Shown: positions 33,541-54,613, counted from the stretch's first letter. The stretch is 64,000 nucleotides of DNA from Patescibacteria group bacterium (GCA_041742135.1 JBGSJG010000004.1:171773-235772); one strand, 5' to 3'. Notes: generated by a model not told the origin, from the letters alone. Program-made: numbers and translations.

Positions 33541-33560
33541 GGAAATTTAATTTTATAATA

Positions 33561-41800: not shown

Positions 41801-44800
41801 GATTGAGTCGCCAACAAATGCAAATGCTCCAGTTGTTGCGGCGGATGACGTAAATGTTTGAGCCCCTGTGCCTGAGGTAAAGGCTAGCGCCGAAGCTCCT
41901 GTGTTGTTGCCTACTGTGATTGTTCTTGCAGCTGAGCCAGTGCCAATATTTATGGCTTGAGCAACTGCGTCGTTACCTATACTAATAGCTCCACCAGATG
42001 AGTTGATTTGAAGAGCACCGGTAGCATCGATATCTAAAGTTGTCGATGAGATTGCGCCTGTGTCTCCGCCGTCTCCGATTGTAAATACTCCATTTGCGTC
42101 AAGCGTTCCATCGACTGTTACATTGTCTGCTCCGGTTGCAGTGGTGAGCGTTGTTCCTGTTCGTGTCCAATATCCCACAGTCCCTGTGGCTGCACCAGTG
42201 ATGTTACCAGAACAAACTAAGTTTCCATTTGATTGGTCCAAGGTACAACCCGTATCTCCTGAGCCTCCAGCAAAAACTATGTTGCCAGCTCCACTTCCTG
42301 TCGGGCCAATGTTAAATGTGGTCGCAGCTCCGCCGAAGTTGATTTGGGTAGAGGCTGAGTTTAATAAATTGAATGTTGCCGGCCCGACGATTGTGTCCGC
42401 GGTTCCTACAAATGTTAAGTCTCCAGTTGCATTAAACTGCGCATAATTGGTGGCTCCGCCATCGCCAACAGATGTGACTCCAAGTAAGCCAATTGTGGAT
42501 GTGGCCAAACCTCCAATGTTAATATCATCTGCTGTTGATCCTCCTGTACCAATATTGATTGTGTCCGCGCCAGTTCCTGTACCAATATTGAAAGCACGGG
42601 TCAAAGCTCCGCCGGCTCCTAGATTTAGCGTTGTCGCTGCTGTCGTTCCCACCGATACCGTTGTTGCCGTGGTATATCCAAGCTGAAGTTCACCTGCGCC
42701 ATTGGTGTCTAGGCCAACCCCTGCAGCTACAGTAATGTTTCCCGTTGATGCAACATCAAAGTTATCAAAGTTAATAACAGCCGTGGTTCCAGCAATATTG
42801 TTTGCTCCAACATTTATTGCATTGAAAAATCCTGCATCAGATACATCAATTGCATCTGCTGTGGTATCAGTTGAAGCGGTGTTGAGTAGCAAGTAATCTG
42901 TAATTCCGTCGGCTGTAGTATCAAGATTGTCCAGCTGGAAGATAAAAGCAGAGTCAGTTCCTGTTGCGTCGGGATTGCTGAAGACGATTGAATCATCTGC
43001 AGCTGTAAATGCAATAGTTGTATTGCCGGTATCTGTGTCGTTGTTGTAAGCAGTTTGCAGTGTCACTGAGCTGGCACCAGTATCATCATCTCCACAAGTG
43101 ATGACTCCGTTTGCATCAGTTGTTAAAACACCGCCATTGGCGGAACCAGAGCAGTTAAGGGCTGCGCCACCATCATATAGTCGTATATCTCCAGACGCAT
43201 TTAAGATGATGTCGTCTTCGGCTCTTATGTCTACATCATTGCCATCCGCTACCTGTGAGGGGAGCGTATCACCTCCACCAAGAAGAAGATTCGCCGTGTC
43301 TGAATTTGCGAGAACACTTAGGTTTCCAGCTGTTGTTGACCATACACTGGCTGCATTTCCAGTTAAGGTTAACGCCTGTGAAGCATCACCTGCCACAACC
43401 AGTGCAGCGCCCGATGGGCCAGTGATGTTTCCACCTGAAACAACCAAATCTCCAGTTATTGAAAGATCACCAGCGTTGGAGTTGTCAGTCAATGTCAAAA
43501 GATCATTTCCTGCGGCATCTTCTAGCGTAAAGACTCCCGTGTCAGCTATGCCGATGCTTGTGGTTGTGTCATTAAAGAATAGATTTGAATCCCAGCCGCT
43601 TCCGATGTTGATTGCATTTTCAGTCGCTTGAGCGTCGCCGGTAATTGCTGCTATGTCAATTCCGTAGAATGCGTTACTTGTTCCAGCATGATCAGCATTG
43701 GTATAGTTTAGGTATAGTCCGCGGAAGGTGTCAGAGTTGTCAAAAGCCCCCAGTGTCCCTGAAAGCGTGGCTGCATTACTTGAGCCGGCGGCTGCGTTTA
43801 CATTTAACACTGAAAGGTTTCTGGAAGCAGCAATGCTTAATGTGGTGTCGTTGTCGGATAGTGCTGAATCAACAAGGTTTGATCCAGAACTGTCCCATCG
43901 TGGGAGGAAGTCTTCTGTTCCAGACCCTGAAACTCCACCACTACCAACAGTACACGTAACCACGTTATTTGATCCATCTACACATAGAGCGTTACCAGAT
44001 CCGCTGGTAAGGCCAGATATGTTTAGGTAAGAGCCGGAAGCGTTTGCTGTCACAAGTGTAATGTCCCCACCACCGGCAGGATCAAGAGAAATGTCGCCAG
44101 AAGTAGTAGTCGTCAGGGAGAGGTTGGCACCTGTTGAGTTTAATCCCAAAGCTCCGCTTGAGCTTAGTGAGTTTGCATCAAGAGTTGTGCTGTCCACTAG
44201 TAGAGATGCTAAGGTTCCAGCACCCGCACCAGTTATTGACCAGTTGGGATCAGTAAGCGCGAGATCTATGTTTGTCGCAAGACCGATATTTATAGTTTGA
44301 GTGACATTTGATGTTCCAATGTTTAAGGCAGAACCGGCTGTTCCGTTGATCGATATATCATCTGTGGCAGCCAATGTGATGTCACCGTTTGAAGCACCAC
44401 CGGCCGTGAGCGTGATTGAACCATCAGTGGTATCAACCGTGACGTTTCCTGCTGAGTTTATATCAATTCCGCCAGCGCTGGTGTTTAGCGACAATGCATC
44501 TGCTCCGGTTCCAGCCGAAGAGAGAATCAAGGATGAGTTGGTAGCTCCTGTTACTGAAATATCCAAATCATCAGCATCACCACTTGAAGCTTTAGTGATT
44601 AAGTCCCCTGTGCCCACGAAAGATACATCTCCAGTAGAGCTCACTTGGAACAAGTCCCCATTGCCTACGCTCAAAGCGGCGGCAGGCGAGGAATCTCCAA
44701 TACCAAAGTTCCCTGCGTGATACGACTGGCCACCTGCGGAGTAGATTGAGTGATAACTATCAGCTGGTCCTGCATTGGCGTTGATGTAAAGCCCATAGCC

Positions 44801-47800
44801 AGTAATAGTGCCTGCTCCACCACCGAATTGGGCATTTATGTGAACTCCGTAGCCGGTTATATTACTGCCAGTTGAATTTACCCCAGCTACAGAATCTGCA
44901 TAAAGGCCTTTGACTGTGGCAGTACCCGAGCTTGCGGTTCCAAGGTCATATGCTGAAGCATAAACTCCAAGCAAAGTCCTAGCTGAAGAAGAGGTGTTTA
45001 GGGCATAAGCATTAATAGCATTATTGTAATCTCCTCCAGAGGCTTGGGTGTAAATTCCATAATTATTTAATGCATTACCTCCAGCTGACTCAGTTGCTGA
45101 GTTGAGATAATAGCCGCCGTATGTCGCCAGGTTTCCTGCTGTTGTATCAAATGTGCCAGCATTTGTTACGTACAAATTCTTGAAGTCAGCCGTGGTTACA
45201 CCAGTATCAATATTATCAAGCTGAAGTACAAAGGCAGAGTCAGTTCCGGCAGATGCAGTTGGATTTCTAAATATTAATGAATCATCGTCTCCAGAGAGGG
45301 TGATAAGTGAGTCAGATCCATTAGCGTCATTGTCGTATGCGTTTTGTAGGGTAGAGGCGAGGGCGCCGTTACTTCCTGTTATTGTTCCGGAACAGTTTAG
45401 GTTCCCATTCGACTGATCGAGCGTACAGCCTGTGTCCCCAGATCCTCCTGCCAAAAGAATGTTTCCAGCTCCTGAACCTGTTGGACCAATATTAAATGTG
45501 GTGGCAGCACCACCGAGGTTCAATGTTGTAGCTGTTGTGTTTATCAAATTGAATGTGCTTTCGTCCGTTGCGAGTGTCCCGGCCCCTACGGTTATAGTAT
45601 TGTTTCCAAATATCAACTGCGGGTCTGTCCCGCTCACATCAAACGTCCAAGTATTACTCGCATTTGCGTTATCACTCCAGATAATATCGTCAAGCTCAGT
45701 GGCATTAAATGCTATATCGTCAGCATTTACTGTAATACCGACACCGTCGCCGACAGTTACTGTGCGGTCAACATCTGCTCCGACCAAGATATTGTCAGCA
45801 CCACCTGTGAGCCCAGCACCTGCAACTAAGTCACCCAAAAGGTTAACTGTGAAGTCAAGGTTTTCGTCTCCATCATCTCCGTTCGTAAGGTTTGTCAAGA
45901 CGTTTCCATCCGAGGAGGTGAATCTAAGAATATTTGAAGCTACGATCGCGTAAGTGTCAGTGTCGTCGTCAGCTACGCTCCAGCTTACATAATTGTCATA
46001 TGTTCCAGCGGCTTGGTAACCAGTACATACTGAACCAGTTGTACAAATTGTCCCGGTCTCGTTAGGGAGTGACCATGTCTTGTTGCTGCCAGTTAAATCA
46101 AGCGAGGTAAGTGTGCCTGTAAAACTTGCTGCACTAGTAGTTTGCGGTTTGATAGATATAGTATCGCTGTTCGCGGTAGTTGAGCTTAGACCAAATGTAC
46201 CATCAGCTTTTAATATGTTACTAATTCCAATGTCAGTGCTTGCTCCAGTTGCGGTCCAGGTAGGATTACCCAAAGCTGCTGCATTCGCAAGCGTCAACTC
46301 ATTAACAGCGGATCCAGTAGCAGTCAGGTTGATTAACTCGTTTCCGTTTGTATCTAAAATAGCCGTACCGATTCTTGGAGAGGTAAGAGTTTTGTTTGTT
46401 AATGTTTGCTGCTCGTCACGCCCTACCACTGTCCCGCTCGCTCCAGTGGCAGCTGGGAAAGTCCAAGTGTCACTATCTACACCTGCAAAAGTCAAAGAGT
46501 TATCAATATTTAGAGTTTTGCCGTTTGCAATATCTAGTGTTCCAGTTGAAGTCGTGATTGTAAGCCCTTCGTATGTAGCTCCTGTTATGGCTCCGGCGGA
46601 AGAGATCTCCCAGTCGCTTGAGAATATTGAAACCTCAGCTGAGTTGTCTCCAGTTGCCGCGTCCCCCAGAATCAACCCGTTTCCTGCAGCTGCTCCGAGT
46701 TGGATAGTGTCTGCGCCTTCGTCTACAAGGAGCCAATTAGTAGCTCCATCCCAAATTCTGAAGTCTCCTGTGTCTGTTCCCTCTCCAACCTCAAAATCTA
46801 CATTAGCTGTTTGAGCATCTATGTCGAGTGCTCCTTCTCCTGAGGTAATGTCGATAGTGTTTCCGGATGTATAGGCTTGCTGCAAAGTGGTGGAAGCGCC
46901 GGAAATGCTTGCCCAAGCTGACCCATCCCACACTTTTACAAGATTGGTATCAGATTCATAGGCTAGGTAGCCTTCGGCTGAGCCTCCAGGTCCTGTCGAG
47001 GATAGGGAAGTGCCGGTAGGAAGCTTAAGCCCATACGAGCTGGTGGACTCTGGGTCAATAGCAGACAAATCAAGAAGTGTATTGGCAGCGAGCGTAATGT
47101 TACTTCCTGAATAGATTCCGTTATCCCAGCCAGCGCCAATATTAAGTGCATTTTCTGTGGCCTCAGCGTCAGCTGTTATACCAGCTATGTCGATTCCGTA
47201 AAATGCGTTTGTGGATCCGGTATGATTTGCATTTGCGTAGTTCAGATACAACCCTCGGAAGGTATCTGAGTTATCGAAAGCTCCAAGTGTTCCCGAAAGT
47301 GTTACTGAGTTAGCGCTTGCTCCAGCTCCGTTTACTAGGCTAAATGTGTAAGCGCCTGTGCCTTCGTCGCCGTTATTCCTTAGGTAAATATCATCAATAG
47401 TTACGTCTCCGCTTGTCACGGTGAAATAGCTATCGTTGAAGCTGGCAACACCCTTTGTGCTGGTGGTTGCATCTACTCCTGCAATAGCCAAACTGTTTGC
47501 TCCTGCCGTAGTAGTAATGCCGTTTGAACCACTGAAATCAACAATGTAGCCTGTGGTTACGTTTTGGTTTGAGCCTGCATCTGCTTGGAGAACCCAGTTT
47601 TGGTAATTGTCCGAGGTTGGGATATCTGAGGTTAGTGCAATTGTTCCAGTGGTGTTGGGTAACGACCATGTTTTGTCAGAACCTGTTAGGTCAAGAGATG
47701 TAAGCGTGCCTGTGAAGCTTGCCGCTGCACTTGTTGTTTGTGGTTTGATAGCTATTGTATCTGTGTTGGCAGTGCTTGAGCTAAATGTTGCAGAGTTTGT

Positions 47801-50800
47801 AGTGCTCAATGTTGAGCTGAAAACTCCAGAGGTTTGGGTGAATCCTGTAACTGCACCCAAGGCTCCAGAGTTAACGTTTAATCCATTTAACGATCCGGTT
47901 GTGGCTGCAGTTAATGTGCCACCAGTGGAAAGGTTTCCGGAGTCATCGATCGTGACTGATGAGTTTTGGATAAGCTTGCCTGTTGTCAAATCAAATCTTG
48001 CAATGGCGTGATCTGTTGAGCTTGCTGGGCCGACCACGTCACCTGTTCCACCTACACCAGCGCAGTTTCCAGTTGATAAACAAAATTCTGCGTCGCTGCC
48101 CTCGTAGGGGATGGTGTAAGTTCTGTCCGCTGTTGGGTCTTCAGCAATAATGTATAAATCGTTGGCGTCGTCGGTTGAGCCTTCAATTTCAAAGATATTC
48201 TGCCAGTCTTCACCGATTCGGATTGCAGATTCAATTACGGTGGCATCAACTGAAGCTAGGTTATTGATGTTTATTCCATAAAGCTCGTCTGCGTCACCTG
48301 TGTTGGCTGAAGTAACATCGATATTCAAGGCTGAGACTATGTCTGCATCGGCATCTGCTCCAAGAGTCAGGTTGAAATCAAACATTGTGCCGGAATTGGT
48401 AATTGTCTTGGTTGTGTACAAATTGGTGCCATCATCCAAGAGGTTTGATGAGGTTATCTCGCCTGCAGTTGAGCTAAACTTTGTCAGTGCATTTGTTGTT
48501 TGGCTGGTGTAGCTCACTCCGCCCCCACCTGAGCCAAAACAGTTACCTTCGGTTGTACATACAGTTCGATTATCAGTGATAACTGGAAAAGTGAGCGTAT
48601 ATGCTCCGCTTGTTTGATCTGCAAAGGCAAGGGTCAAGTCGTTTGTGGCCAAGTCGACAGTTGTGTTACCAGAAAGAGTGGGTGAAACGAGTGTCTTGTT
48701 ACTTAGCGACTGCTGTAGTGTTGTAAATACGAAAGTGTCATCAGCAGACAGAGCGGGGATAGTAGCGATTCTTGAGGCTCCACTTGGTGCAGTAACGGAT
48801 AGTGTGAGATCGTTTGACCCTTTTTCAAAAAGGAAAGTTCCATCTGCTTGGATTCTAAATCTTTCAGTTCCTGATGCCCCTCCTGTTAAGAAACTTAGGT
48901 ATCCGTCTGTGCCGGAAGGGGAGTCGCCTGAGGCCAGTACCAAGTTTCCACCAGCACCTGTTGTAAGACCGCTTCCAGCTATTACGCTCAGAGCGCCGCC
49001 TGCATTGCCGTTTGTAGAAGCATCCGAGCCTGTGATTGCATAAGCTGTTCCGGTCGCTGCGTCTAGGAAGTTCAGGCTACTGTCAAATGAACCTGTGACT
49101 GTGATCGTGTCTGCCGCAGCGTCCCCAAAATTAAGATTTCCCTGAAATGTGTTTTCTCCAGTAAATATTTGAGTTACATCAAGAAGCGCAAACGTACCTG
49201 AACCGTCAGGAAGAGTATATGTTCTGTCGTCAGTTAAATCTTCTGAAGTAATTGTGCCTGTGAATGCATTGGTTGCAGTTAGATTCTGAGGCTCGATCGC
49301 GATAGAATCAGTATTGGCAAGATTATTGCCAAACGTGGCCTTTTGGCCGGTAGTTAAATCTACACTAAAAGCTCCTTGAGTCTGAGTAAATCCTAGAACC
49401 CCTCCGATTCTGTCTGTGATATTTACATCTCCACCGGAAGAATTGATGGTCAAGTCTCCAGTGTCGCTTACGCTGAAGCTTGTAAATGCGCTTCCATCTG
49501 TCTCTGTAAGCCTCAGTTTTTCGTCGCTCGTTGTCAAGATATCAAGTGCCGCATCGGGGCCTGCTGTTCCGACTCCCACTTTTCCATCTGTGAGTATTGT
49601 TAAAAATGGATTAGTACCGGGGGTTGCTCCGTCTCCAATTTGGAACAGATCATCATCATCGTTTCCATTGTCATCAACAACTCCTGCCCAGAACTTGGTA
49701 TCTGAAGCTGCTCCTGCATTAAAGATCAAGCTTGGATCTTCCTTTGTTAAAGTTATATCTCCAAGATCAGAGATGGTGACTGTTGAGTCTTGTATTAATT
49801 TGCCTGTTGTTAAGTTAAATCTTGCAATTGCGTTGTCTGTGGCACTTGCTGGGCCAACAACATCTCCACCTGTGCCAGTGGCTGAGATGGTCAGGGTCTT
49901 TGTGGAATTGTCTGTTGCTAGTGTTACTCCTGTTCCTGCCGCCACATTCAAGGCTGTGGTAGTTGAGCTGGGTGTAATTGTTGTTTGGGTTGGAACCACA
50001 ATTGAGGAGAACAAATTCTGATCTCCAGTGTTCGTGCCTGAGAGTGTGGCATCTCCGTTAACAGTCAATGTCCTTGAAGACCCAGTACCTCCAGCAATGC
50101 TAAACTGGCTTGCTCCTTCAGTTAAGGTTAGGGCGTTGTAGGTGAGGGCAGTAACTGCTCCGAGGTTGTCTACCTGGAATGGGTCTCCGCTTCCCACTGT
50201 GAATAAAGCGGCAGGCGAGCTGTCTCCAATCCCTACATTGCCACCGAGGAAAGAAGCAGCGTATGTAGTATCGTTTGCGTTTGCAGTTGTTACGTCAATG
50301 TATGCTCCATAGATTGTATTAGTTAAAGTTCCTGCATCGGTAAAGCCTATGTCAAGTCCTCGCAGGGTGTTGGCAGAGCTTGATGCGTTATTAGTTAGAT
50401 TGATATCTATTGCACTCTGTGTGCCACCTGCAGTTGGGATGTATGTAGCAGTCAAATCAAAGGCGTTTCCGGTTGTCAGCCCTGTACTTGCAAGGGAGAG
50501 CAAGTTTTCTGTATCAGCGTCTAAATCAAAACTAAAGTTGGCGCTTGAGCTTAAAACTCCGTCGCCCGTGAAGTATGCAATTTGTGTGTCAGCTTGAGTA
50601 CCGCTTTCAGTTACACCGCCACCTGCACCTGCACAGTTTCCCGTTGATAAACATAGATCTGCATTAGCAGTGAGGCTTGGAATTGTGAGTGTAAATGCGC
50701 CGTTTGTCTGGTCTGCCACTGCGAGAACCAAGTCGTTAGTGGCTTCATCAAAGGTAAGATTGCTATCAAATGTCCAAGCACCGTTAAAGTCTCCATCATC

Positions 50801-53359
50801 AATAGTGGTCGTGCCGAGGTCGAGGGTTCCCGCGGACAGGGAAGCGGTACCGTCTGAAAATGACGAACCAACAAATGCACCAGCTGTCGACACGGACCAA
50901 TCGTTGCCGCCAGTTATGGCGACCGTTGTGCTGGCGTTACTGTTTCCAATACTCAATGTATCAGCAGACGTACTATTAGTTGCTATATTGATAGTGTTTG
51001 TTAGATCTGTATCAACGCCGCCAATGTCTATTGTCCGAGCTGCTCCAGCGGATCCACCTGCCAGTGAGTCGCCAATGTTAAACGGGGAAGTGTGAGAGCC
51101 AAAATTGACATAGTCAATTGATACATCTATTTCGTCCGCAGGGTCTTCGTTAACCAAGAAATCGTAAGCATTGAAGCTAAGAACTGTCCCATCAACTTCG
51201 CTTCCACCTTCTTCTTTTACGCTTACAACGGCCGAGCTTAAGCCACCCGTGTCGTCAGCACAGTACCAGCCACCTGAAGTGCCAGCCCCGCCGTCATCTA
51301 AATCCGTGTCCCACTTAAGAACCTGACCTGCTGTACAGCCTCGGATTAAAGATAATCCGTCTGAAATCACCTCAAGACCAGATACGCTCGAGTTTGTGGC
51401 CGAGGCAGCAAAAGTTGTACCCGTGGCCAAGGTCAAAGCATCGGCATCAAGTTTGCCAGTCGCTAAGGTCAGCGCTTCATTCCCGCTACCTGCATATAAA
51501 ATGCCATCAAGTTCAAATGATCCTTCGACATATGCGTCTTCGCCGTTAAGAGACTGGGTCGGGGTGCCATTTCCAATTTTCAAATTGCCTGCTAAGACAT
51601 TAAGTAGGCCATTTGCTCCAACTGTAAGATTTACATTGCCTGATGCATCAGCTGTTAGGATTGGGTCTGTAACTCCTACCCCCGAAGAGTACAAGGTTAA
51701 GCTGCCATTTAGAGATTCGTCAACACCTGCGCTGAAGCTTCCGGTTGATACATCAAAGAAAAACGGAGCAGTAGATGATGTTCCCCCAAATGCCACATCA
51801 AAGCCAGCCGTGCTACTGCTGTTTGTCGGGTAAATTACATCGGGAGTGGGAGTTGTGTTTACTGTCCACTTTGAGGAGCCAGAGCCGACCGCGGAGCTTA
51901 TGTCTTCAAGCACAGTCTGCAGGTCAGTTGCTAGAGTCTGCGAAATGCTTGTGTTATCTACGCCTATTAGTCCGGCACCTGAGGCACCCGCCGCAAAATC
52001 ATTCAAGCCAATCGCGCCAATTGTGAGATCGGCTCCTGTGGCTAGTGTTAAATTACCACTGTTGTCTATTGTTACAACATTGGTTCCATCTGATTGTTCA
52101 AACACTGCAAGCAGGGAAGTTTGAGTCGCATTTGCCTGCACAAGCAATTGGATTTCATCTGTGTCCCCGTCAACGGCCAATTTTGCCAAATCGGTTGAGC
52201 CACCTATGTTGACATTGTCGGTTGTTGTCGTAAGAGCTACCAAGGTCCCGGAATCAGACCAAGCATTAACAACCGACCCTGCGACGTCCGTCCAGGTAAA
52301 TGCGCTGGTTGAAGAGTTGTAAGTAAGAACATAGCCGTTCGTGGGTGAGTTCGATGCGTTTAGATCTACTTCAGTAATAGTACCATCTGCTATTTCGCTT
52401 GTATCAATAGAGTCTCCCAAGGGTGAAACAGTTGCTGTTAGCGCGCCATCCACAATTGATATGCCAGTACCAGTAAAATCAGTGACTGTATCAGTACCGA
52501 GAGTAAAAGAAGCAGCTTGTGCATCTCCATCTATGGTTGCGTCAAGGGCTACACTTAGAGATCCGGATAACGTATTATTTACCGCAAAGAGATTTCCGTT
52601 GAACTCAGAATCTCCGGAAACAAACAAATCACCGTCTTCCAAATCAATATTTGCTGCTAAGCCGTCACCGATTGAAACTCCGCCGCCCAGAGGTTGAATC
52701 AACAAATCCTCGCTTGAAACAAGTTCGTTGCCAATCAAGTTAAGCGTACCTTCAATATTGACATCGTTCGTAAAGTTAGACTCTATGTTTACATTAAATT
52801 GGGTTGATAAAAGTGAATCGCGAGTGGCAAGAACTTGGCTTGTTTTATACGCAAAGTTAACATTTTCTGTGCCTAAAGACGTGCGGAAAAGAGGAAGCGA
52901 CTCTTTAGACCGATCAATAATGCCGGAATTTAAAATTAGCAGGCTTACGATTGTGAAGACGACTGTGAACTTAACACTTCTTGCTATTCTCTCTTGTTTT
53001 AAATGCAAAGGTCTAAAAATTCGAGGTTGATATTCCGCATTTGGTGCTTTTTGTGTTTCTTTGCGCTGTGGCAAGGGAGCACTAAAGCTCTGTTCTGGGT
53101 AAGCTTGAAACGGTTTTGGGGCAGGTGGTACATGCTTCGGAAAAGCCTGCACAGGAGTGAACGAGGGAGCCTGGATTGTGGCTTGCTTATGATGGCTTCG
53201 TTTAAACGAAATGAGGTCAGCTAATAGGTATCTGCGGTGGCCACCCTCTGTGCGCTGAGCATTTATCTTGCCGCTTTCTTCCCACCTTCGAAGAGTTTTT
53301 GAGGAGACTTTCAGGTAAGTGGCGGCCTGTTGGATTGTTAGATACTTTTGGGCTGGCAT
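38861..53359 (-). CDS. Giant 4832-aa protein: N-terminal excisionase/MerR-type HTH, single TM helix, very long Thr/Ser/Gly/Asn/Asp-rich modular extracellular region with internal repeats, coiled-coil-like segment and C-terminal module.
   Basis: The frame is continuous over 14.5 kb. The N-terminus YLTIQQAATYLKVSSKTLRRWEESGKINAQRTEGGHRRYLLADLISF matches the HTH_17/excisionase pattern. The TM helix is FTVVFTIVSLLILNSGII (aa ~130-147). Modules recur (e.g. DDDDLFQIGDG, GGAATTFNIGPTGSGAGN...GCTLDQSNGNL, GALDIDAQTANVDFEVGEGTDTGDFRIWDG). A 192-aa unit is repeated at ~85% identity. Confidence 0.8.
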   Translation of the reverse strand: MPAQKYLTIQQAATYLKVSSKTLRRWEESGKINAQRTEGGHRRYLLADLISFKRSHHKQATIQAPSFTPVQAFPKHVPPAPKPFQAYPEQSFSAPLPQRKETQKAPNAEYQPRIFRPLHLKQERIARSVKFTVVFTIVSLLILNSGIIDRSKESLPLFRTSLGTENVNFAYKTSQVLATRDSLLSTQFNVNIESNFTNDVNIEGTLNLIGNELVSSEDLLIQPLGGGVSIGDGLAANIDLEDGDLFVSGDSEFNGNLFAVNNTLSGSLSVALDATIDGDAQAASFTLGTDTVTDFTGTGISIVDGALTATVSPLGDSIDTSEIADGTITEVDLNASNSPTNGYVLTYNSSTSAFTWTDVAGSVVNAWSDSGTLVALTTTTDNVNIGGSTDLAKLAVDGDTDEIQLLVQANATQTSLLAVFEQSDGTNVVTIDNSGNLTLATGADLTIGAIGLNDFAAGASGAGLIGVDNTSISQTLATDLQTVLEDISSAVGSGSSKWTVNTTPTPDVIYPTNSSSTAGFDVAFGGTSSTAPFFFDVSTGSFSAGVDESLNGSLTLYSSGVGVTDPILTADASGNVNLTVGANGLLNVLAGNLKIGNGTPTQSLNGEDAYVEGSFELDGILYAGSGNEALTLATGKLDADALTLATGTTFAASATNSSVSGLEVISDGLSLIRGCTAGQVLKWDTDLDDGGAGTSGGWYCADDTGGLSSAVVSVKEEGGSEVDGTVLSFNAYDFLVNEDPADEIDVSIDYVNFGSHTSPFNIGDSLAGGSAGAARTIDIGGVDTDLTNTINIATNSTSADTLSIGNSNASTTVAITGGNDWSVSTAGAFVGSSFSDGTASLSAGTLDLGTTTIDDGDFNGAWTFDSNLTFDEATNDLVLAVADQTNGAFTLTIPSLTANADLCLSTGNCAGAGGGVTESGTQADTQIAYFTGDGVLSSSANFSFDLDADTENLLSLASTGLTTGNAFDLTATYIPTAGGTQSAIDINLTNNASSSANTLRGLDIGFTDAGTLTNTIYGAYIDVTTANANDTTYAASFLGGNVGIGDSSPAALFTVGSGDPFQVDNLGAVTALTYNALTLTEGASQFSIAGGTGSSRTLTVNGDATLSGTNTGDQNLFSSIVVPTQTTITPSSTTTALNVAAGTGVTLATDNSTKTLTISATGTGGDVVGPASATDNAIARFNLTTGKLIQDSTVTISDLGDITLTKEDPSLIFNAGAASDTKFWAGVVDDNGNDDDDLFQIGDGATPGTNPFLTILTDGKVGVGTAGPDAALDILTTSDEKLRLTETDGSAFTSFSVSDTGDLTINSSGGDVNITDRIGGVLGFTQTQGAFSVDLTTGQKATFGNNLANTDSIAIEPQNLTATNAFTGTITSEDLTDDRTYTLPDGSGTFALLDVTQIFTGENTFQGNLNFGDAAADTITVTGSFDSSLNFLDAATGTAYAITGSDASTNGNAGGALSVIAGSGLTTGAGGNLVLASGDSPSGTDGYLSFLTGGASGTERFRIQADGTFLFEKGSNDLTLSVTAPSGASRIATIPALSADDTFVFTTLQQSLSNKTLVSPTLSGNTTVDLATNDLTLAFADQTSGAYTLTFPVITDNRTVCTTEGNCFGSGGGGVSYTSQTTNALTKFSSTAGEITSSNLLDDGTNLYTTKTITNSGTMFDFNLTLGADADADIVSALNIDVTSANTGDADELYGININNLASVDATVIESAIRIGEDWQNIFEIEGSTDDANDLYIIAEDPTADRTYTIPYEGSDAEFCLSTGNCAGVGGTGDVVGPASSTDHAIARFDLTTGKLIQNSSVTIDDSGNLSTGGTLTAATTGSLNGLNVNSGALGAVTGFTQTSGVFSSTLSTTNSATFSSSTANTDTIAIKPQTTSAAASFTGTLTSLDLTGSDKTWSLPNTTGTIALTSDIPTSDNYQNWVLQADAGSNQNVTTGYIVDFSGSNGITTTAGANSLAIAGVDATTSTKGVASFNDSYFTVTSGDVTIDDIYLRNNGDEGTGAYTFSLVNGAGASANSVTLSGTLGAFDNSDTFRGLYLNYANANHTGSTNAFYGIDIAGITADAEATENALNIGAGWDNGIYSGSNITLAANTLLDLSAIDPESTSSYGLKLPTGTSLSSTGPGGSAEGYLAYESDTNLVKVWDGSAWASISGASTTLQQAYTSGNTIDITSGEGALDIDAQTANVDFEVGEGTDTGDFRIWDGATNWLLVDEGADTIQLGAAAGNGLILGDAATGDNSAEVSIFSSDWEISSAGAITGATYEGLTITTSTGTLDIANGKTLNIDNSLTFAGVDSDTWTFPAATGASGTVVGRDEQQTLTNKTLTSPRIGTAILDTNGNELINLTATGSAVNELTLANAAALGNPTWTATGASTDIGISNILKADGTFGLSSTTANSDTISIKPQTTSAASFTGTLTSLDLTGSNKTWSLPNETGTICTTGSVCTGYQAAGTYDNYVSWSVADDDTDTYAIVASNILRFTSSDGNVLTNLTNGDDGDENLDFTVNLLGDLVAGAGLTGGADNILVGADVDRTVTVGDGVGITVNADDIAFNATELDDIIWSDNANASNTWTFDVSGTDPQLIFGNNTITVGAGTLATDESTFNLINTTATTLNLGGAATTFNIGPTGSGAGNILLAGGSGDTGCTLDQSNGNLNCSGTITGSNGALASTLQNAYDNDANGSDSLITLSGDDDSLIFRNPTASAGTDSAFVLQLDNIDTGVTTADFKNLYVTNAGTFDTTAGNLATYGGYYLNSATESAGGNALNNYGIYTQASGGDYNNAINAYALNTSSSARTLLGVYASAYDLGTASSGTATVKGLYADSVAGVNSTGSNITGYGVHINAQFGGGAGTITGYGLYINANAGPADSYHSIYSAGGQSYHAGNFGIGDSSPAAALSVGNGDLFQVSSTGDVSFVGTGDLITKASSGDADDLDISVTGATNSSLILSSAGTGADALSLNTSAGGIDINSAGNVTVDTTDGSITLTAGGASNGDITLAATDDISINGTAGSALNIGTSNVTQTINIGLATNIDLALTDPNWSITGAGAGTLASLLVDSTTLDANSLSSSGALGLNSTGANLSLTTTTSGDISLDPAGGGDITLVTANASGSYLNISGLTSGSGNALCVDGSNNVVTCTVGSGGVSGSGTEDFLPRWDSSGSNLVDSALSDNDTTLSIAASRNLSVLNVNAAAGSSNAATLSGTLGAFDNSDTFRGLYLNYTNADHAGTSNAFYGIDIAAITGDAQATENAINIGSGWDSNLFFNDTTTSIGIADTGVFTLEDAAGNDLLTLTDNSNAGDLSITGDLVVSGGNITGPSGAALVVAGDASQALTLTGNAASVWSTTAGNLSVLANSDTANLLLGGGDTLPSQVADGNDVDIRAEDDIILNASGDIRLYDGGAALNCSGSANGGVLTTDANGVITCGDDDTGASSVTLQTAYNNDTDTGNTTIAFTAADDSIVFSNPDATGTDSAFIFQLDNLDTTADGITDYLLLNTASTDTTADAIDVSDAGFFNAINVGANNIAGTTAVINFDNFDVASTGNITVAAGVGLDTNGAGELQLGYTTATTVSVGTTAATTLNLGAGGALTRAFNIGTGTGADTINIGTGGSTADDINIGGLATSTIGLLGVTSVGDGGATNYAQFNATGDLTFVGTADTIVGPATFNLLNSASTQINFGGAATTFNIGPTGSGAGNIVFAGGSGDTGCTLDQSNGNLVCSGNITGAATGTVGYWTRTGTTLTTATGADNVTVDGTLDANGVFTIGDGGDTGAISSTTLDIDATGALQINSSGGAISIGNDAVAQAINIGTGSAARTITVGNNTGASALAFTSGTGAQTFTSSAATTGAFAFVGDSISSGTGFDLSFDALAGGKGINLTSTSTAVTTGNLFSSSLSGASAFSGNLNLFEFSGAATATGDLVRINLGASSNIGNLLNITDNGTTLFSVSESQITSALPHQFTSAGDVSFAYDIIMANQTASNISSLGPITLEAGESFESNDLTLKTYNAGDLVADIGGNLVVSSADPAIVFDTLTATDTDFWMAVIEDAGGDDDDLFQIGDGTTIGTNPFLTVNTSGGVGIADVSPSGTWLDIGANTTAIASLRLNASSAVNVSSPAIGDLWFNGTNLNFRKDGSTTVDLLAAGTTPTLQQAYEAGETIDVDSTNGALTIAGVSANIDFEIGSGTDTGDFRIWDGTNNWLLVDEDASTVNLGNANGATALNLTSGTGAQTFTSSASTTGSFAFVADSITSGTGFDLSFDGLAAGKGINLTSTSTAVTTGSLFSSSLSGASAFSGNLNLIEYTGAATATGDLLRINIGASSNVGNLFNITDNGSSLFAVNETQITSALPHQFTAAGDVTMAYDLVFTNQTASVVKSYGPLTIESGESFENQNLTLKTYGTGKIIADGGFSLGAQETLEDSTTPSVGGASHFVAANSTNRLVTTFDDGTAGQIIVIESSDTDLDFDCAGSEATINCGNVDLAAAAGDIFVWIYDGTVWNLINFMESNSDQTGSDLAEWFPANGEIAAGEVVSIDGSDPIKVQRALESDGQRVIGIVSTDPGLILGQAEEGIPYAQVALAGRVPVKVDPTSAAIANGDLVGAAATAGMAKKVDGGWVIGRALEAWTPGSGQETVTVFVNPIYVNQTQFAQTNYDQQILDLQSSLSLIQSQLDLGEETSSSGVFTDLTVNQLTVLEDAVLSDTVINGKLNIGTIQIDNANNSIDAIGALKIQPLALGNIEFMGGLISFDTNGNIVAQTVTAEKYKVAGASAGTGILLSGTTEVEIESDLVNASSLILVTPKAALAYPMAVTAKEEGVGFTVSVQFPENYDVEFDWFIVDKN
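40145..40720 (-). repeat. Intragenic direct repeat, copy 2 (576 bp; aa 4214-4405).
   Basis: The protein segment ALNLTSGTGAQTFTSS...LTLKTYGTGKIIADGGFSL. See copy 1. Confidence 0.8.
41315..41890 (-). repeat. Intragenic direct repeat, copy 1 (576 bp; aa 3824-4015 of the giant protein).
   Basis: The protein segment ALAFTSGTGAQTFTSS...LTLKTYNAGDLVADIGGNL aligns to copy 2 over 192 aa with no gaps. The nucleotide anchor cattgtctgttatgtt occurs at 41551 and 40381 (offset 1170 nt). Confidence 0.8.
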
Positions 53360-53400
53360 TTGGGCATTTATTGATTACTGAAATATTAGACTTTTAATCT

Positions 53401-53430
53401 TAGACATTAAGCTTGATTTGTCCAATTTCA
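53401..53430 (+). promoter_or_regulatory. Distal copy of a ~30-bp direct-repeat motif (ttagaCattaaGcttgaTttgtccaAtttc) in the divergent intergenic region upstream of the giant gene.
   Basis: It matches 53792..53822 at about 26/30 positions. It contains a TTGATT -35-like hexamer and the tgtcca core. Confidence 0.4.
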
Positions 53431-53791
53431 TTAAGACATATTTTGGTAGTGGTGTCAATGCTTTTTAGAGCAAAATGCACGGATTTAATGTGAGGTAAAT
53501 TGCGAGTGGCGCGTTAAACGATAGATATCTTCAGTGAGGACCTTTAGAGTGTAGATCAAGCTAATAAACTAGTAAGTAGAGTAGGTGATAATGAAATGTT
53601 GTTGTGCTGTGTAGAGATAAATGCCGAAATTCTTACCAAAATTGTTTTTAGTAACGAGGCTAACTTTAATAACCGCGAGGAAGCTTTAATTTCCGCATTA
53701 TAAGCTGAGCTCATATGCTTATTGTTTTGCTTGACGATGAATATTCTTGGTGATTCGTTTATGTGACTTTTATTGCTTAATTTCTGAGAGG

Positions 53792-53833
53792 TTAGATATT
53801 AACCTTGAATTGTCCATATTTGCTTTTTAAGTT
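53792..53833 (+). promoter_or_regulatory. Proximal motif copy (ttagaTattaaCcttgaAttgtccaTattt) overlapping a sigma70-like promoter TTGAAT-N17-TAAGTT for the 53855 gene.
   Basis: TTGAAT at 53805..53810, a 17-nt spacer, TAAGTT at 53828..53833, and the ATG at 53855. Confidence 0.35.
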
Positions 53834-53854
53834 CAGTTTAACTAGCATTAAAAG

Positions 53855-54613
53855 ATGAAACGAAGCATACTTTTATTAGTACTTTTGCTGGGATTTATTG
53901 GTGCAGCTCCGTCGTTAGCTCAGGTTGATAGTCTTGGGTTAGCTATTCCGATAGAAGTAGAAGATGAAACGACTGGTGGTGACATTATCTGCTCGCTAGA
54001 TGGCGGCTTAGGCCTTTGTAGGTCTGACTATGACCCCGCAATGTATGGAGTTATTACACAAAGCCCGTCGATTGATTTGGCTGCCCCAGATGAAAGTGGC
54101 CCGATGGCTGTAACTACTGGGGATGCAATCGTGCGAGTTTCTACAGTAAACGGGCCAATTGTCGCAGGAGACATTATTACATCATCTTCAAAGCCCGGTG
54201 TTGGGCAAAAGGCGACAGTAAACGGATTTGCTTTAGGTGTCGCAATGGAGGAGTACGCTTCCGAAGACCCTGACGACATCGGCGAAATTTTAGTGAGCAT
54301 CAATATTCATCCCACTAGTTCATTTGTTGGCTCAAGATCGAACTTGGTTTCAAGCATTCGCCAAGCTTTAAGCGCGCCAGTTGTGGCGCCTTTGGACTCA
54401 CTTAGGTATTTGTTAGCGTTTATTGTTGCGATGATATCTTTTGCACTAGGATTTATATATTTTGGTAGAGTAGTTCGAACTGGTGTCGAAGCGATAGGAA
54501 GAAACCCGTTGGCAAAAAGAGCAATTCAAGCTACTATCGCAGCCAACATAGTGGTCACGGTTGTTATTGTGTTAGCTGGACTCGGATTGGCTCTACTTAT
54601 TCTAATTGTCTAA
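53855..54613 (+). CDS. Hypothetical secreted/membrane protein (signal peptide, Gly/Asp-rich region, C-terminal TM helices).
   Basis: Signal peptide MKRSILLLVLLLGFIGAAPSLAQ. C-terminal hydrophobic segments. It overlaps the gpmI start by 8 nt. Confidence 0.55.
   Translation: MKRSILLLVLLLGFIGAAPSLAQVDSLGLAIPIEVEDETTGGDIICSLDGGLGLCRSDYDPAMYGVITQSPSIDLAAPDESGPMAVTTGDAIVRVSTVNGPIVAGDIITSSSKPGVGQKATVNGFALGVAMEEYASEDPDDIGEILVSINIHPTSSFVGSRSNLVSSIRQALSAPVVAPLDSLRYLLAFIVAMISFALGFIYFGRVVRTGVEAIGRNPLAKRAIQATIAANIVVTVVIVLAGLGLALLILIV

What the first reader, a model, noticed from the sequence alone, without database searches (positions are those of the whole stretch)
53401..53833. Two direct copies of a ~30-bp motif in the 495-bp divergent intergenic region upstream of the HTH-giant gene
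ttagaCattaaGcttgaTttgtccaAtttc at 53401..53430 and ttagaTattaaCcttgaAttgtccaTattt at 53792..53822 match at ~26/30 positions and have the same orientation.

The proximal copy overlaps a sigma70-like TTGAAT-N17-TAAGTT promoter for the 53855-gpmI-ATP-synthase transcription unit. The distal copy lies ~40 bp upstream of the giant gene's start on the opposite strand.

The giant protein itself starts with a DNA-binding HTH, so these are candidate operator sites. That would make this a self-contained regulatory circuit.
Basis: seen in the sequence. Interest (0 to 1): 0.6.

Follow-up and report, generated by a model that had tools for sequence, protein, structure and literature searches.

The report
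Conserved operator palindrome beside giant HTH gene
The two repeated ~25-bp sequences are real and are copies of an inverted-repeat DNA site (TTrGACA-N12-TGTCCAA) that sits next to this giant membrane protein's gene across a whole group of uncultured bacteria, most likely the docking site for the protein's own DNA-binding head, giving a rare testable regulator-target pair in these organisms.

Summary
The repeat is real. It lies at 53400-53424 and 53792-53816 and is 22/25 identical. None of 2000 shuffles reached more than 20/25.

It is not simply a direct repeat. Each copy is an imperfect palindrome, TAGAyA-N12-TGTCCA. The family consensus half-site is AAAnTTrGACAwTT.

In about 80 syntenic Woesebacteria/Microgenomates loci:
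- A strict palindrome lies within 200 bp upstream of the orthologous HTH gene in 44 loci.
- It starts 5-6 nt after a conserved promoter, TTGACA-N14-TGn-cTTAAT.
- Second sites on the ATP-synthase-operon side occur in 24/52 loci, against 1.8 expected.
- The motif is nearly absent from 609 kb of flanking DNA.
- It is absent where the HTH gene is absent.

The HTH is BldC-like, and the Lys, Arg and His that contact DNA in BldC are conserved. It is followed by a Pro-rich linker, one transmembrane helix and a ~4,700-aa ectodomain.

In an unrelated soluble family, four members with a Q/N recognition helix have a different upstream palindrome. The one K/R-helix member has the TTGGACA palindrome.

Best reading: these are operators of a membrane-tethered BldC-like regulator that controls its own surface-protein operon and the neighbouring ATP-synthase operon. 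Binding is inferred, not shown.

The conserved one is TTGCTT-N17-TAGCAT.

The parts
53400..53424 (.). Distal (HTH-gene-proximal) operator: imperfect palindrome TAGACA-N12-TGTCCA. It consists of half-sites 53396-53410 (+, AATCTTAGACATTAA) and 53415-53429 (-, GAAATTGGACAAATC).
   Evidence: An orthologous palindrome with at most 1 mismatch lies within 200 bp upstream of the HTH gene in 44 of ~80 loci. The same three-half-site layout occurs at +22/+37/+56 from the start codon in L003, L208, L008 and L004.
53382..53396 (+). Third half-site (AATATTAGACTTTTA), in direct orientation 14 bp from the left arm of the distal palindrome.
   Evidence: PWM score 12.3. It is conserved at the same position in L003, L208, L008 and L004. 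Direct pairs at 10-14 bp are common in the family.
53792..53816 (.). Proximal (operon-side) operator: TAGATA-N12-TGTCCA. It has one consensus half-site, 53807-53821 (-, AAATATGGACAATTC, score 15.8), and a degenerate left arm.
   Evidence: The orthologous site in L208 is a perfect palindrome at the identical distance (48 nt) from the operon start. Full sites occur in L004 and L209, half-sites in L211 and L005, and none in L003, L008 or L210.
53430..53458 (-). Predicted promoter of the giant HTH gene: -35 TTGACA (53458..53453), 17-nt spacer containing TGn (53438..53436), -10 CTTAAT (53435..53430). The palindrome begins 5 nt downstream.
   Evidence: An exact TTGACA lies 33-36 nt upstream of the palindrome in 34/43 loci, followed by an A-rich spacer, TG and nTTAAT. 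CTTGACA is the second most enriched 7-mer in the intergenic regions. No transcript data are available.
53820..53848 (+). Predicted promoter of the operon starting at gene 53855: -35 TTGCTT (53820-53825), 17-nt spacer, -10 TAGCAT (53843-53848), then 6 nt to the ATG. The mRNA would be leaderless or nearly so.
   Evidence: TTGnnn-N17-TAGCAT is conserved in L003, L004, L005, L208 and L211 immediately before the start codon. This is an inference from conservation only.
53180..53359 (-). Coding region for the N-terminal BldC-like/MerR-type winged HTH (residues 1-60) of the giant protein.
   Evidence: Pfam MerR E 2.4e-10 and HTH_17 E 5.2e-10. PDB phmmer finds BldC 6AMA/6AMK at E 3e-8, with K-T-x-x-R-W and GGHRRY aligned. 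NCBIfam HTH_BldC scores 47.5 bits, below the cut-off of 77. TIGR01764 scores 37.8 bits, above its cut-off of 28.8.
52916..52978 (-). Coding region for the only hydrophobic (transmembrane-like) segment of the giant protein (about residues 128-148). It follows a Pro-rich linker (residues ~57-125).
   Evidence: Kyte-Doolittle scan of all 4832 residues finds one segment. The same layout of HTH, linker, TM and large C-terminal region occurs in 69/80 orthologues.
38861..53359 (-). Giant gene (4832 aa). It is followed on the same strand by two DUF2341/Laminin_G_3 surface-protein genes (33561-38861 and 28579-33540).
53855..54613 (+). First gene of the divergent operon. It encodes a 252-aa secreted or membrane protein with a c-subunit-like C-terminus. 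It is followed by gpmI and the ATP synthase b, delta, alpha, gamma and beta genes.
   Evidence: Synteny with the HTH gene is conserved in ~75/80 loci.

Best explanation
The two repeats are operator sites for the BldC-like winged-HTH domain at the cytoplasmic N-terminus of the giant single-pass membrane protein.

Each protomer would recognise a half-site AAAnTTrGACAwTT. By analogy with BldC, the wing would contact the AT-rich flank and the recognition-helix Lys/Arg would contact the GGAC core.

At the distal site, three half-sites are arranged -> -> <-. The inverted pair is about two helical turns apart. This site begins 5 nt after the -10 of the gene's own conserved promoter, so occupancy should block transcription. 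That would give negative autoregulation of the giant gene and probably of the two surface-protein genes downstream.

The proximal site has one good and one decayed half-site. It abuts the weak -35 of the near-leaderless promoter of the operon encoding the c-like protein, gpmI and ATP synthase. It would couple that operon to the same factor. The sign is unknown; the position next to a poor -35 slightly favours activation.

Shown here: the motif, its non-random occurrence, its conservation and linkage to the HTH gene, the homology to BldC, and the HTH-linker-TM-ectodomain architecture.

Inferred: that this HTH binds these sites, that it does so while membrane-tethered or after release, and the direction of regulation.
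For: 1. The repeat is non-random.

2. A palindrome TGGACA-N11-14-TGTCCA with at most 1 mismatch occurs 56 times in 707 kb of Microgenomates loci. Of these, 44 lie within 200 bp upstream of the orthologous HTH gene and 7 lie between the HTH gene and the operon. Only about 3 are truly elsewhere. Control hexamer arrangements give 3-13 hits.

3. The motif stays with the HTH gene when other DNA separates it from the operon: L017, L050, L071 and L082 have gaps of more than 1.2 kb. It is absent from L065, L072 and L074, which lack the HTH gene.

4. An unbiased 7-mer count ranks TTGGACA first, in 37/52 intergenic regions against 1.25 expected.

5. Operon-side half-sites occur in 24/52 loci, against 1.8 in shuffles (maximum 6). 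Half-site density is 1.78/kb there and 0.07/kb in 609 kb elsewhere.

6. The proximal site is orthologous in L208 (perfect palindrome, same distance to the ATG), L004 and L209.

7. The HTH is most similar to BldC (6AMA/6AMK, E 3e-8), and the residues that contact DNA in BldC are conserved (Lys26, Arg30, His46; PMC5859096). BldC's whiI site...TGTCCGAATT..., resembles TGTCCAAnaTT.

8. Orthologues with the canonical helix KTLRRW[ED] have a strict palindrome in 44/73 cases, against 0/7 for divergent helices (Fisher p = 0.0026).

9. In a soluble 242-aa MerR/HTH_17 family, four members with helix TQTLRNWE carry TTTATAGGTTT-N7-AAACCTATAAA palindromes upstream. The one member with KTLRRWD (L091) instead carries AAAGTTGGACA-N12-TGTCCAACTT.

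10. No other HTH of this family is encoded in the 64-kb window.
Against: - No binding, expression or transcription-start data exist for any of these organisms.
- Only 64 kb of this genome and about ±4 kb around one syntenic locus in relatives were searched, so a wider regulon or a distant trans-factor cannot be excluded.
- L091 shows that a soluble protein with the same helix and the same palindrome exists, so a paralogue elsewhere in this genome could be the binder.
- BldC binds direct repeats head-to-tail. Here the dominant arrangement is inverted, with 19-20 bp between equivalent bases.
- The domain scores below NCBIfam's BldC cut-off.
- 29/73 canonical-helix orthologues lack a strict palindrome, though nearly all have at least 2 half-sites.
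- The proximal site is missing in L003, L008 and L210, and its left arm in the window has lost the near-invariant C.
- The helix/palindrome association (point 8 above) is confounded by phylogeny, and the specificity-swap argument rests on a single K/R-helix case.
- A 4832-aa membrane protein reaching DNA is unusual, although transmembrane regulators are a known class (PMC10269533).
Confidence: 0.6

Rival explanations
1. The sites are genuine operators, but they are bound by a different, soluble regulator with the same type of recognition helix. This would be a paralogue encoded elsewhere in the genome, like the 242-aa protein of L091. The giant protein's HTH would then have another role or merely share the specificity.
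For: In L091 a soluble 242-aa MerR/HTH_17 protein with helix KTLRRWD has the same extended palindrome 22 bp upstream of its start, in a different gene context (lepB neighbour). Only 64 kb of this genome could be inspected. Membrane tethering limits access to DNA.
Against: The motif is tied to the membrane-HTH gene in ~80 loci and is absent where that gene is absent. Among the 120 best relatives of the L091 protein, it is the only one with the K/R helix; 100 of the 118 whose helix could be read have the Q/N helix. The relatives that carry names come from Parcubacteria lineages, not Woesebacteria. No such gene lies in the window.
Confidence: 0.15
2. The motif is only core promoter sequence. TGGACA would serve as a -35 and TAAGAT/cAAnAT as a -10 for the giant gene, and the second copy would be a duplicated promoter fragment. 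No dedicated regulator would be involved.
For: The only hit of the promoter scan in 53300-53900 is TGGACA-16 nt-TAAGAT on the minus strand, 9/12. A palindrome spacer of 12-13 nt gives a -35/-10 spacing of 16-17 nt.
Against: - Both arms are conserved symmetrically, including the outer AAA flank and an invariant C (83/84). A promoter does not require this.
- Palindrome spacers vary from 11 to 14.
- A separate, better conserved promoter (exact TTGACA in 34/43, then TGn and nTTAAT) lies just upstream.
- Second sites occur upstream of the operon's -35 in many lineages, and arrays of direct half-sites occur in L085 and L078.
- The promoter scan found fewer hits than the shuffles did (1 versus a mean of 2.0).
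Confidence: 0.1
3. The HTH binds the sites, but its role is to tether the locus or chromosome to the membrane next to the giant surface protein. This would be a RacA-like anchoring function or would assist co-transcriptional membrane insertion, rather than transcriptional control.
For: RacA, a chromosome-anchoring MerR-like wHTH protein that binds inverted repeats as a symmetric dimer, is a weak match (PDB 5I41, E 0.0019; NCBIfam E 0.0029). Both flanking transcription units encode membrane or secreted products.
Against: The distal site begins 5-6 nt after the -10 of the gene's own promoter in most lineages, and the proximal site abuts the operon's -35. These positions are expected for regulation. 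Tethering and regulation are not mutually exclusive.
Confidence: 0.08
4. The palindrome acts at the RNA level, as a 5'-UTR hairpin that stabilises the mRNA or is bound by a protein.
For: If transcription starts after CTTAAT, the distal palindrome lies at the extreme 5' end of the giant gene's mRNA. The minus-strand RNA folds into the expected hairpin (-5.4 kcal/mol, z = -1.95).
Against: - The hairpin is weak, with a 12-nt loop, and the proximal copy does not form it on either strand.
- Sequence is conserved rather than pairing.
- G-to-A variants at half-site position 2 are split evenly between the two arms (about 8 versus 9; my count from the sequences listed). On the sense RNA, half of these are A·C mismatches.
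- Half-sites also occur singly and in direct arrays.
- The proximal copy lies upstream of the operon's promoter.
Confidence: 0.03

Closest known systems
BldC of Streptomyces (PDB 6AMA, 6AMK; NCBIfam NF033787; Schumacher et al. 2018, PMC5859096)
   Same: It is the best sequence match to any solved structure (E 3e-8). It has the same MerR-like wHTH without the MerR coiled coil. Lys and Arg on the recognition helix and the wing His (GGHRRY) are conserved. The BldC protomer site is an AT-rich tract plus a G/C a few bp away, and its whiI site TGTCCGAATT resembles TGTCCAAnaTT. Site number and length vary, and extra half-sites in direct orientation occur at about 10-14 and 21 bp.
   Different: BldC is a free 68-residue protein. 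Here the domain is fused to a Pro-rich linker, a TM helix and a ~4,700-aa ectodomain. The domain scores below NCBIfam's family cut-off (47.5 versus 77 bits). The dominant site geometry here is an inverted repeat, not head-to-tail direct repeats. BldC controls a dispersed developmental regulon, whereas these sites are local to the regulator's own gene.
Classical MerR-family regulators with divergent regulator/target operons (MerR, CueR, SoxR, HspR)
   Same: Shared features are an N-terminal MerR-type HTH (Pfam PF00376 above cut-off), a regulator gene transcribed divergently from a target operon, a palindromic operator in the shared intergenic region, and expected autoregulation.
   Different: There is no coiled-coil dimerisation helix and no effector domain. 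The operator is not inside a 19-20-bp -35/-10 spacer of the target promoter. The distal site starts after the -10 of the regulator's own promoter, and the proximal site lies upstream of the operon's -35.
Transmembrane transcription regulators (ToxR, CadC, TcpP; survey in PMC10269533)
   Same: One polypeptide carries a cytoplasmic N-terminal DNA-binding domain, a single TM helix and an extracytoplasmic C-terminal region. The predicted targets are neighbouring genes.
   Different: The DNA-binding domain is MerR/BldC-like, not OmpR-like (Trans_reg_C). The ectodomain is 20-50 times larger than in known examples and has no recognisable sensor domain. The organism belongs to the CPR.
RacA chromosome-anchoring protein of Bacillus subtilis (PDB 5I41)
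   Same: It is a MerR-like wHTH that binds inverted repeats as a symmetric dimer and links DNA to the cell envelope.
   Different: The match is weak (E 0.0019). RacA binds GC-rich sites and is anchored through a partner protein, not through its own TM helix. The sites here lie at promoters.

Membership tests
BldC family (NF033787; Schumacher 2018) | MerR-like wHTH homologous to BldC, with conserved recognition-helix Lys/Arg and wing His | tested here: met
   phmmer against the PDB finds 6AMA at E 3.1e-8. The alignment pairs KTLRRW with KTVTRW and matches GGHRRY exactly. The roles of these residues are taken from PMC5859096.
BldC family (NF033787; Schumacher 2018) | Score at or above NCBIfam's curated cut-off for HTH_BldC | tested here: not met
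   47.5 bits against a cut-off of 77. The generic excisionase-family domain TIGR01764 passes (37.8 against 28.8).
BldC family (NF033787; Schumacher 2018) | Small stand-alone protein (~68 aa) consisting only of the wHTH | tested here: not met
   The protein has 4832 aa with one TM segment at about residues 128-148. Orthologues are also long and membrane-anchored.
BldC family (NF033787; Schumacher 2018) | Binds head-to-tail to direct repeats AATTxxxx(C) as cooperative multimers | not testable with these tools
   Sequence evidence only. The half-site AAAnTTrGACA resembles the BldC protomer site. Direct half-site pairs exist at 10-14 and 21 bp, but inverted pairs at 19-20 bp dominate.
Classical MerR-family transcription factors | N-terminal MerR-type HTH | tested here: met
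   PF00376 at 40.5 bits (cut-off 28.2) and PF13411 at 27.6 bits (cut-off 21.6).
Classical MerR-family transcription factors | Coiled-coil dimerisation helix and C-terminal effector-binding domain after the HTH | tested here: not met
   Residues 57-125 are Pro-rich and low in complexity, and are followed by a TM helix. PF13411 matches only profile positions 2-42 of 69.
Classical MerR-family transcription factors | Palindromic operator inside an over-long (19-20 bp) -35/-10 spacer of the target promoter | tested here: not met
   The distal palindrome starts 5 nt after the predicted -10. Alternatively it spans a 16-nt spacer. The proximal one ends 3 bp upstream of the operon's -35. All promoters are predicted, not mapped.
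Transmembrane transcription regulators (one-component, ToxR/CadC-like) | DNA-binding domain and at least one TM segment in one polypeptide, with the DNA-binding domain cytoplasmic | tested here: met
   The HTH spans residues 6-56 and there is a single hydrophobic segment at ~128-148. Topology is inferred from the need for the HTH to be cytoplasmic. The charge bias is only 6 versus 4 K+R.
Transmembrane transcription regulators (one-component, ToxR/CadC-like) | OmpR-type winged helix (Trans_reg_C), as in ToxR and CadC | tested here: not met
   There is no Trans_reg_C hit. The domain is MerR/HTH_17.
Transmembrane transcription regulators (one-component, ToxR/CadC-like) | Regulates target promoters by direct binding while membrane-anchored | not testable with these tools
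   Only positional and comparative evidence is available.
Autoregulatory operator of an adjacent transcription factor (general cis-element class) | The motif co-occurs with the factor's gene across genomes, overlaps its promoter, and changes with the recognition helix | tested here: met
   - 44 of ~80 loci have a strict palindrome within 200 bp upstream of the HTH gene.
- The motif is absent where the HTH gene is absent.
- It lies 5-6 nt after the -10.
- Helix and motif are associated (p = 0.0026).
- Q/N-helix family members carry the TATAGGTTT palindrome, and the single K/R-helix member carries the TTGGACA palindrome.

The most novel reading that the evidence does not exclude
A widespread class of very large CPR cell-surface proteins (0.5 to more than 6 thousand residues) carries its own BldC-like DNA-binding domain on the cytoplasmic side. 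These proteins would act as direct, single-polypeptide transmembrane regulators. The state of a giant ectodomain (for example host or substrate contact) would be read out at a conserved TTGGACA palindrome, setting transcription of the surface-protein operon and the neighbouring ATP-synthase/glycolysis operon. This would be a minimal surface-to-energy-metabolism circuit in organisms with almost no described transcription factors.
Probability: 0.35. Interest if true: 0.75.

Novelty: new variant of a known kind. Interest (0 to 1): 0.58.

Why it matters
Gene regulation in Candidate Phyla Radiation bacteria is almost unexplored, because the organisms are uncultured and have few recognisable regulators. 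My searches of the held paper library found no description of this element or protein class.

This work yields a regulator-operator pair defined purely by sequence. It comes with a position weight matrix, predicted promoters and dozens of orthologous sites. Short synthetic DNA and a 60-125-residue peptide would be enough to test it.

If the binding is confirmed, three things follow:
- BldC-type domains would be shown to work when tethered to a membrane and fused to enormous ectodomains.
- The recognition rule would be extended (K/R helix with GGACA, Q/N helix with TATAGG).
- A giant surface-protein operon would be linked to control of ATP synthase and gpmI across Woesebacteria/Microgenomates.

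Tried and rejected
1. A metagenome-wide scan for TTGGACAN{12,13}TGTCCAA was too unspecific for the size of the collection. It stopped at 120 loci, nearly all chance matches in unrelated organisms with 24-71% GC. Only L091 was informative. It does not answer the regulon question.

2. The search for homologous proteins with the N-terminal 160 aa returned only 2 hits, so no alignment-based structure prediction was attempted.

3. Rfam found nothing in the intergenic region at gathering thresholds. At E of 1 or less there was only a spurious U3 match (E 0.18).

4. Small ORFs: the 52-aa ORF at 53556-53714 (-) has its start codon replaced in L003 and L004, so it is not conserved.

5. A mobile element or target-site duplication bounded by the two repeats was rejected. 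The copies are separately orthologous in relatives: the distal spacer is of type TTAAGyT and the proximal of type TArCCTC. The DNA between them is conserved in blocks.

7. The window's own genome is not among the GTDB representatives and is held only as short Logan contigs, so the rest of the genome could not be scanned.

8. An RNA hairpin reading is weakly supported at best.

Full report
**Observation**

The sequence shows TTAGACATTAAGCTTGATTTGTCCA at 53400-53424 and TTAGATATTAACCTTGAATTGTCCA at 53792-53816, both on the + strand and 392 bp apart.

In 2000 dinucleotide-preserving shuffles of the 495-bp intergenic region, the best 25-nt direct match never exceeded 20/25. Only two other 25-mer pairs in the 64-kb window reach 22/25 within 1 kb, and both lie in tandem paralogous genes.

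The gene context is as described:
- A 4832-aa ORF at 38861-53359 (-) has its only Pfam hits in an N-terminal MerR/HTH_17 domain.
- It is transcribed divergently from a 252-aa gene, gpmI and ATP synthase b/delta/alpha/gamma/beta.

Homologues place the organism among Woesebacteria/Microgenomates in the CPR.

**What the repeat is**

I fetched syntenic loci through homologues of the 252-aa protein.

A divergent gene with the same N-terminal HTH lies upstream of the operon in about 75 of 80 loci. Its consensus is LSIxEAAxxLxVSxKTLRRWExxGxLxPxRTxGGHRRY.

Each window repeat turned out to be an imperfect copy of a palindrome, TGGACA-N11-14-TGTCCA. A weight matrix from 84 arms gives the half-site AAAnTTrGACAwTT, with the core C present in 83/84 arms.

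A census of 707 kb found 56 palindromes with at most 1 mismatch:
- 44 lie within 200 bp upstream of the HTH gene.
- 7 lie between the HTH gene and the operon.
- 5 lie elsewhere, and 2 of those sit at contig edges where the HTH gene is cut off.
- Control arrangements of the same or scrambled hexamers gave 3-13 hits.

An unbiased 7-mer count of the intergenic regions ranks TTGGACA first, in 37/52 loci against 1.25 expected.

The motif follows the HTH gene when more than 1.2 kb separates it from the operon. It is missing in the three loci that lack the HTH gene.

**Fine structure in the window**

The distal site has three half-sites:
- 53382 (+), score 12.3
- 53396 (+), score 15.5
- 53415 (-), score 14.3

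The same -> -> <- layout occurs in L003, L208, L008 and L004, at +22/+37/+56 from the start codon.

The proximal copy has one consensus half-site at 53807 (-), score 15.8. Its left arm is decayed to TAGATA.

In the family, inverted pairs are 19-20 bp apart between equivalent bases, which is about two helical turns. Direct pairs occur at 10-14 and 21 bp. L085 and L078 carry arrays of direct half-sites.

**Promoters**

In 34 of 43 loci an exact TTGACA lies 33-36 nt upstream of the palindrome. It is followed by an A-rich spacer, TGn and nTTAAT. In the window this is TTGACA 53458..53453, TGT and CTTAAT 53435..53430 on the minus strand, with the palindrome beginning 5 nt later. That position is typical of a repressor.

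The promoter scan tool instead flagged TGGACA-16-TAAGAT inside the palindrome. Under either reading the site overlaps the core promoter of the giant gene.

For the operon, the element conserved in close relatives is TTGnnn-N17-TAGCAT, lying 5-8 nt (17 nt in L008) before the start codon. In the window this is TTGCTT 53820-25 and TAGCAT 53843-48.

The proximal palindrome ends 3 bp upstream of this weak -35. L208, at 73% protein identity, has a perfect palindrome at exactly the same distance. L004 and L209 have full sites about 25 bp further upstream. L211 and L005 have single half-sites. L003, L008 and L210 have none.

Across the family, operon-side half-sites occur in 24/52 loci, against 1.8 expected. 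All promoter assignments rest on conservation only.

**Who binds**

The N-terminal 66 residues match BldC (6AMA/6AMK) best among all solved structures (E 3e-8). The Lys and Arg of the recognition helix and the wing His (GGHRRY) are aligned. According to the BldC-DNA structures, these residues read a C-G pair and an AT-rich minor groove (PMC5859096).

The half-site, an AT-rich flank plus GGACA, resembles BldC's whiI site TGTCCGAATT.

NCBIfam ranks HTH_BldC first but below its cut-off (47.5 versus 77 bits). The generic excisionase-type domain passes.

After the HTH come a Pro-rich linker, the only hydrophobic segment of the protein (about residues 128-148), and a T/G/A/S-rich remainder. In 69 of 80 orthologues the best hydrophobic segment after the HTH is TM-like. 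Where the end is known, lengths are 547 to 4832 aa.

A library-wide HMMER search shows the N-terminal HTH on many proteins of 1000-6172 aa.

Two further lines tie motif to helix:
- Orthologues with KTLRRW[ED] have a strict palindrome in 44/73 cases, against 0/7 for divergent helices.
- In a soluble 242-aa MerR/HTH_17 family, the four Q/N-helix members examined carry TTTATAGGTTT-N7-AAACCTATAAA upstream. The single K/R-helix member (L091) carries AAAGTTGGACA-N12-TGTCCAACTT.

This supports autoregulatory operators whose sequence follows the base-contacting residues. It rests on one K/R case, however. It also shows that a soluble protein could share the specificity.

**Rivals**

- Pure promoter reading. 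It does not explain the symmetric conservation of both arms and flanks, the variable spacers, the separate upstream promoter, or the operon-side sites.
- RNA hairpin. It is weak (-5.4 kcal/mol) and is not formed by copy 2. G-to-A variants are split equally between the arms.
- Mobile-element boundary. It is excluded because the two copies are separately orthologous in relatives.
- Distant soluble paralogue as the binder, or a tethering rather than regulatory role. Neither can be excluded with the data available.

**Comparison and novelty**

The system works like a MerR-style divergent regulator/operon pair and like ToxR/CadC-type transmembrane regulators (PMC10269533). It uses a BldC-like domain. 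It fails the defining features of each family in turn:
- It is not a small free BldC.
- It has no MerR coiled coil or spacer operator.
- It has no OmpR-type domain.

My searches of the held paper library found no description of it. I rate it a new variant of a known kind, of moderate to good interest. It gives a concrete, cheaply testable regulator-operator pair in the CPR and links a giant surface-protein operon with ATP synthase.

**Limits**

- There are no binding or transcript data.
- Only 64 kb of this genome and about ±4 kb of the relatives could be scanned.
- The metagenome scan was uninformative, apart from L091.

Noticed in passing
window 53664-53696 (also L003, L004, L005, L008 mid-intergenic): There is a second repeat, CTTTAATAACCGC / CTTTAATTTCCGC, with 20-bp spacing. 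TTwwwCCGCA blocks recur at the corresponding mid-intergenic position in close relatives. This may be a binding array for another factor or part of a leader.
   Followed up: partly
window ~53511-53520: A GCGCGT(T)AA block is conserved in L003 and L005 within otherwise diverged intergenic DNA. Its function is unknown.
   Followed up: no
window 53855-54613: The first gene of the operon encodes a signal peptide, a ~170-aa domain and a C-terminal hairpin with GVEAIGRNPLA. JGI names homologues 'ATP synthase subunit c', yet neither Pfam nor NCBIfam recognises it. It may be an unusual extended c-like subunit.
   Followed up: partly
window 28579-38861 (-): Two genes, of 1766 aa and 1653 aa, carry DUF2341 plus 6-7 Laminin_G_3 domains. 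They follow the giant gene on the same strand, with an overlapping stop and start, and probably form one ~24.8-kb surface-protein operon.
   Followed up: partly
library hits P0123-P0271: The BldC-like HTH heads many very large proteins (up to 6172 aa). It is often duplicated in tandem, and P0124 has 8 HTH copies in 623 aa.
   Followed up: no
L085 57-134; L078 3424-3596: Arrays of 4-5 half-sites in direct orientation occur with a period of about 21 bp. This is reminiscent of BldC-type multimer sites.
   Followed up: no
L212, L215, L217, L218 (about 130 bp upstream of position 2001): A soluble 242-aa MerR/HTH_17 family is widespread in the CPR; the named homologues come from Parcubacteria lineages (3228 proteins found). 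Its helix is TQTLRNWE. Its genes are preceded by paired TTTATAGGTTT-N7-AAACCTATAAA palindromes that overlap a TTGAC promoter. This is another candidate autoregulatory operator family.
   Followed up: partly
L091 954-979 and 1002-1730: A 242-aa soluble member of that family has helix KTLRRWD. It carries the TTGGACA palindrome 22 bp upstream of its start and lies next to a signal peptidase gene.
   Followed up: yes
window 16818-16832 (+): An isolated high-scoring half-site, AAACTTGGACATTAT (score 19.7), lies inside ORF 16141-18672. It has no partner half-site and is probably a chance match.
   Followed up: no
window 7942, 8578, 9215: A three-copy repeat with a spacing of about 637 bp reflects three tandem paralogous genes. 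They share a conserved ...VYIDA.H... motif on the minus strand.
   Followed up: partly
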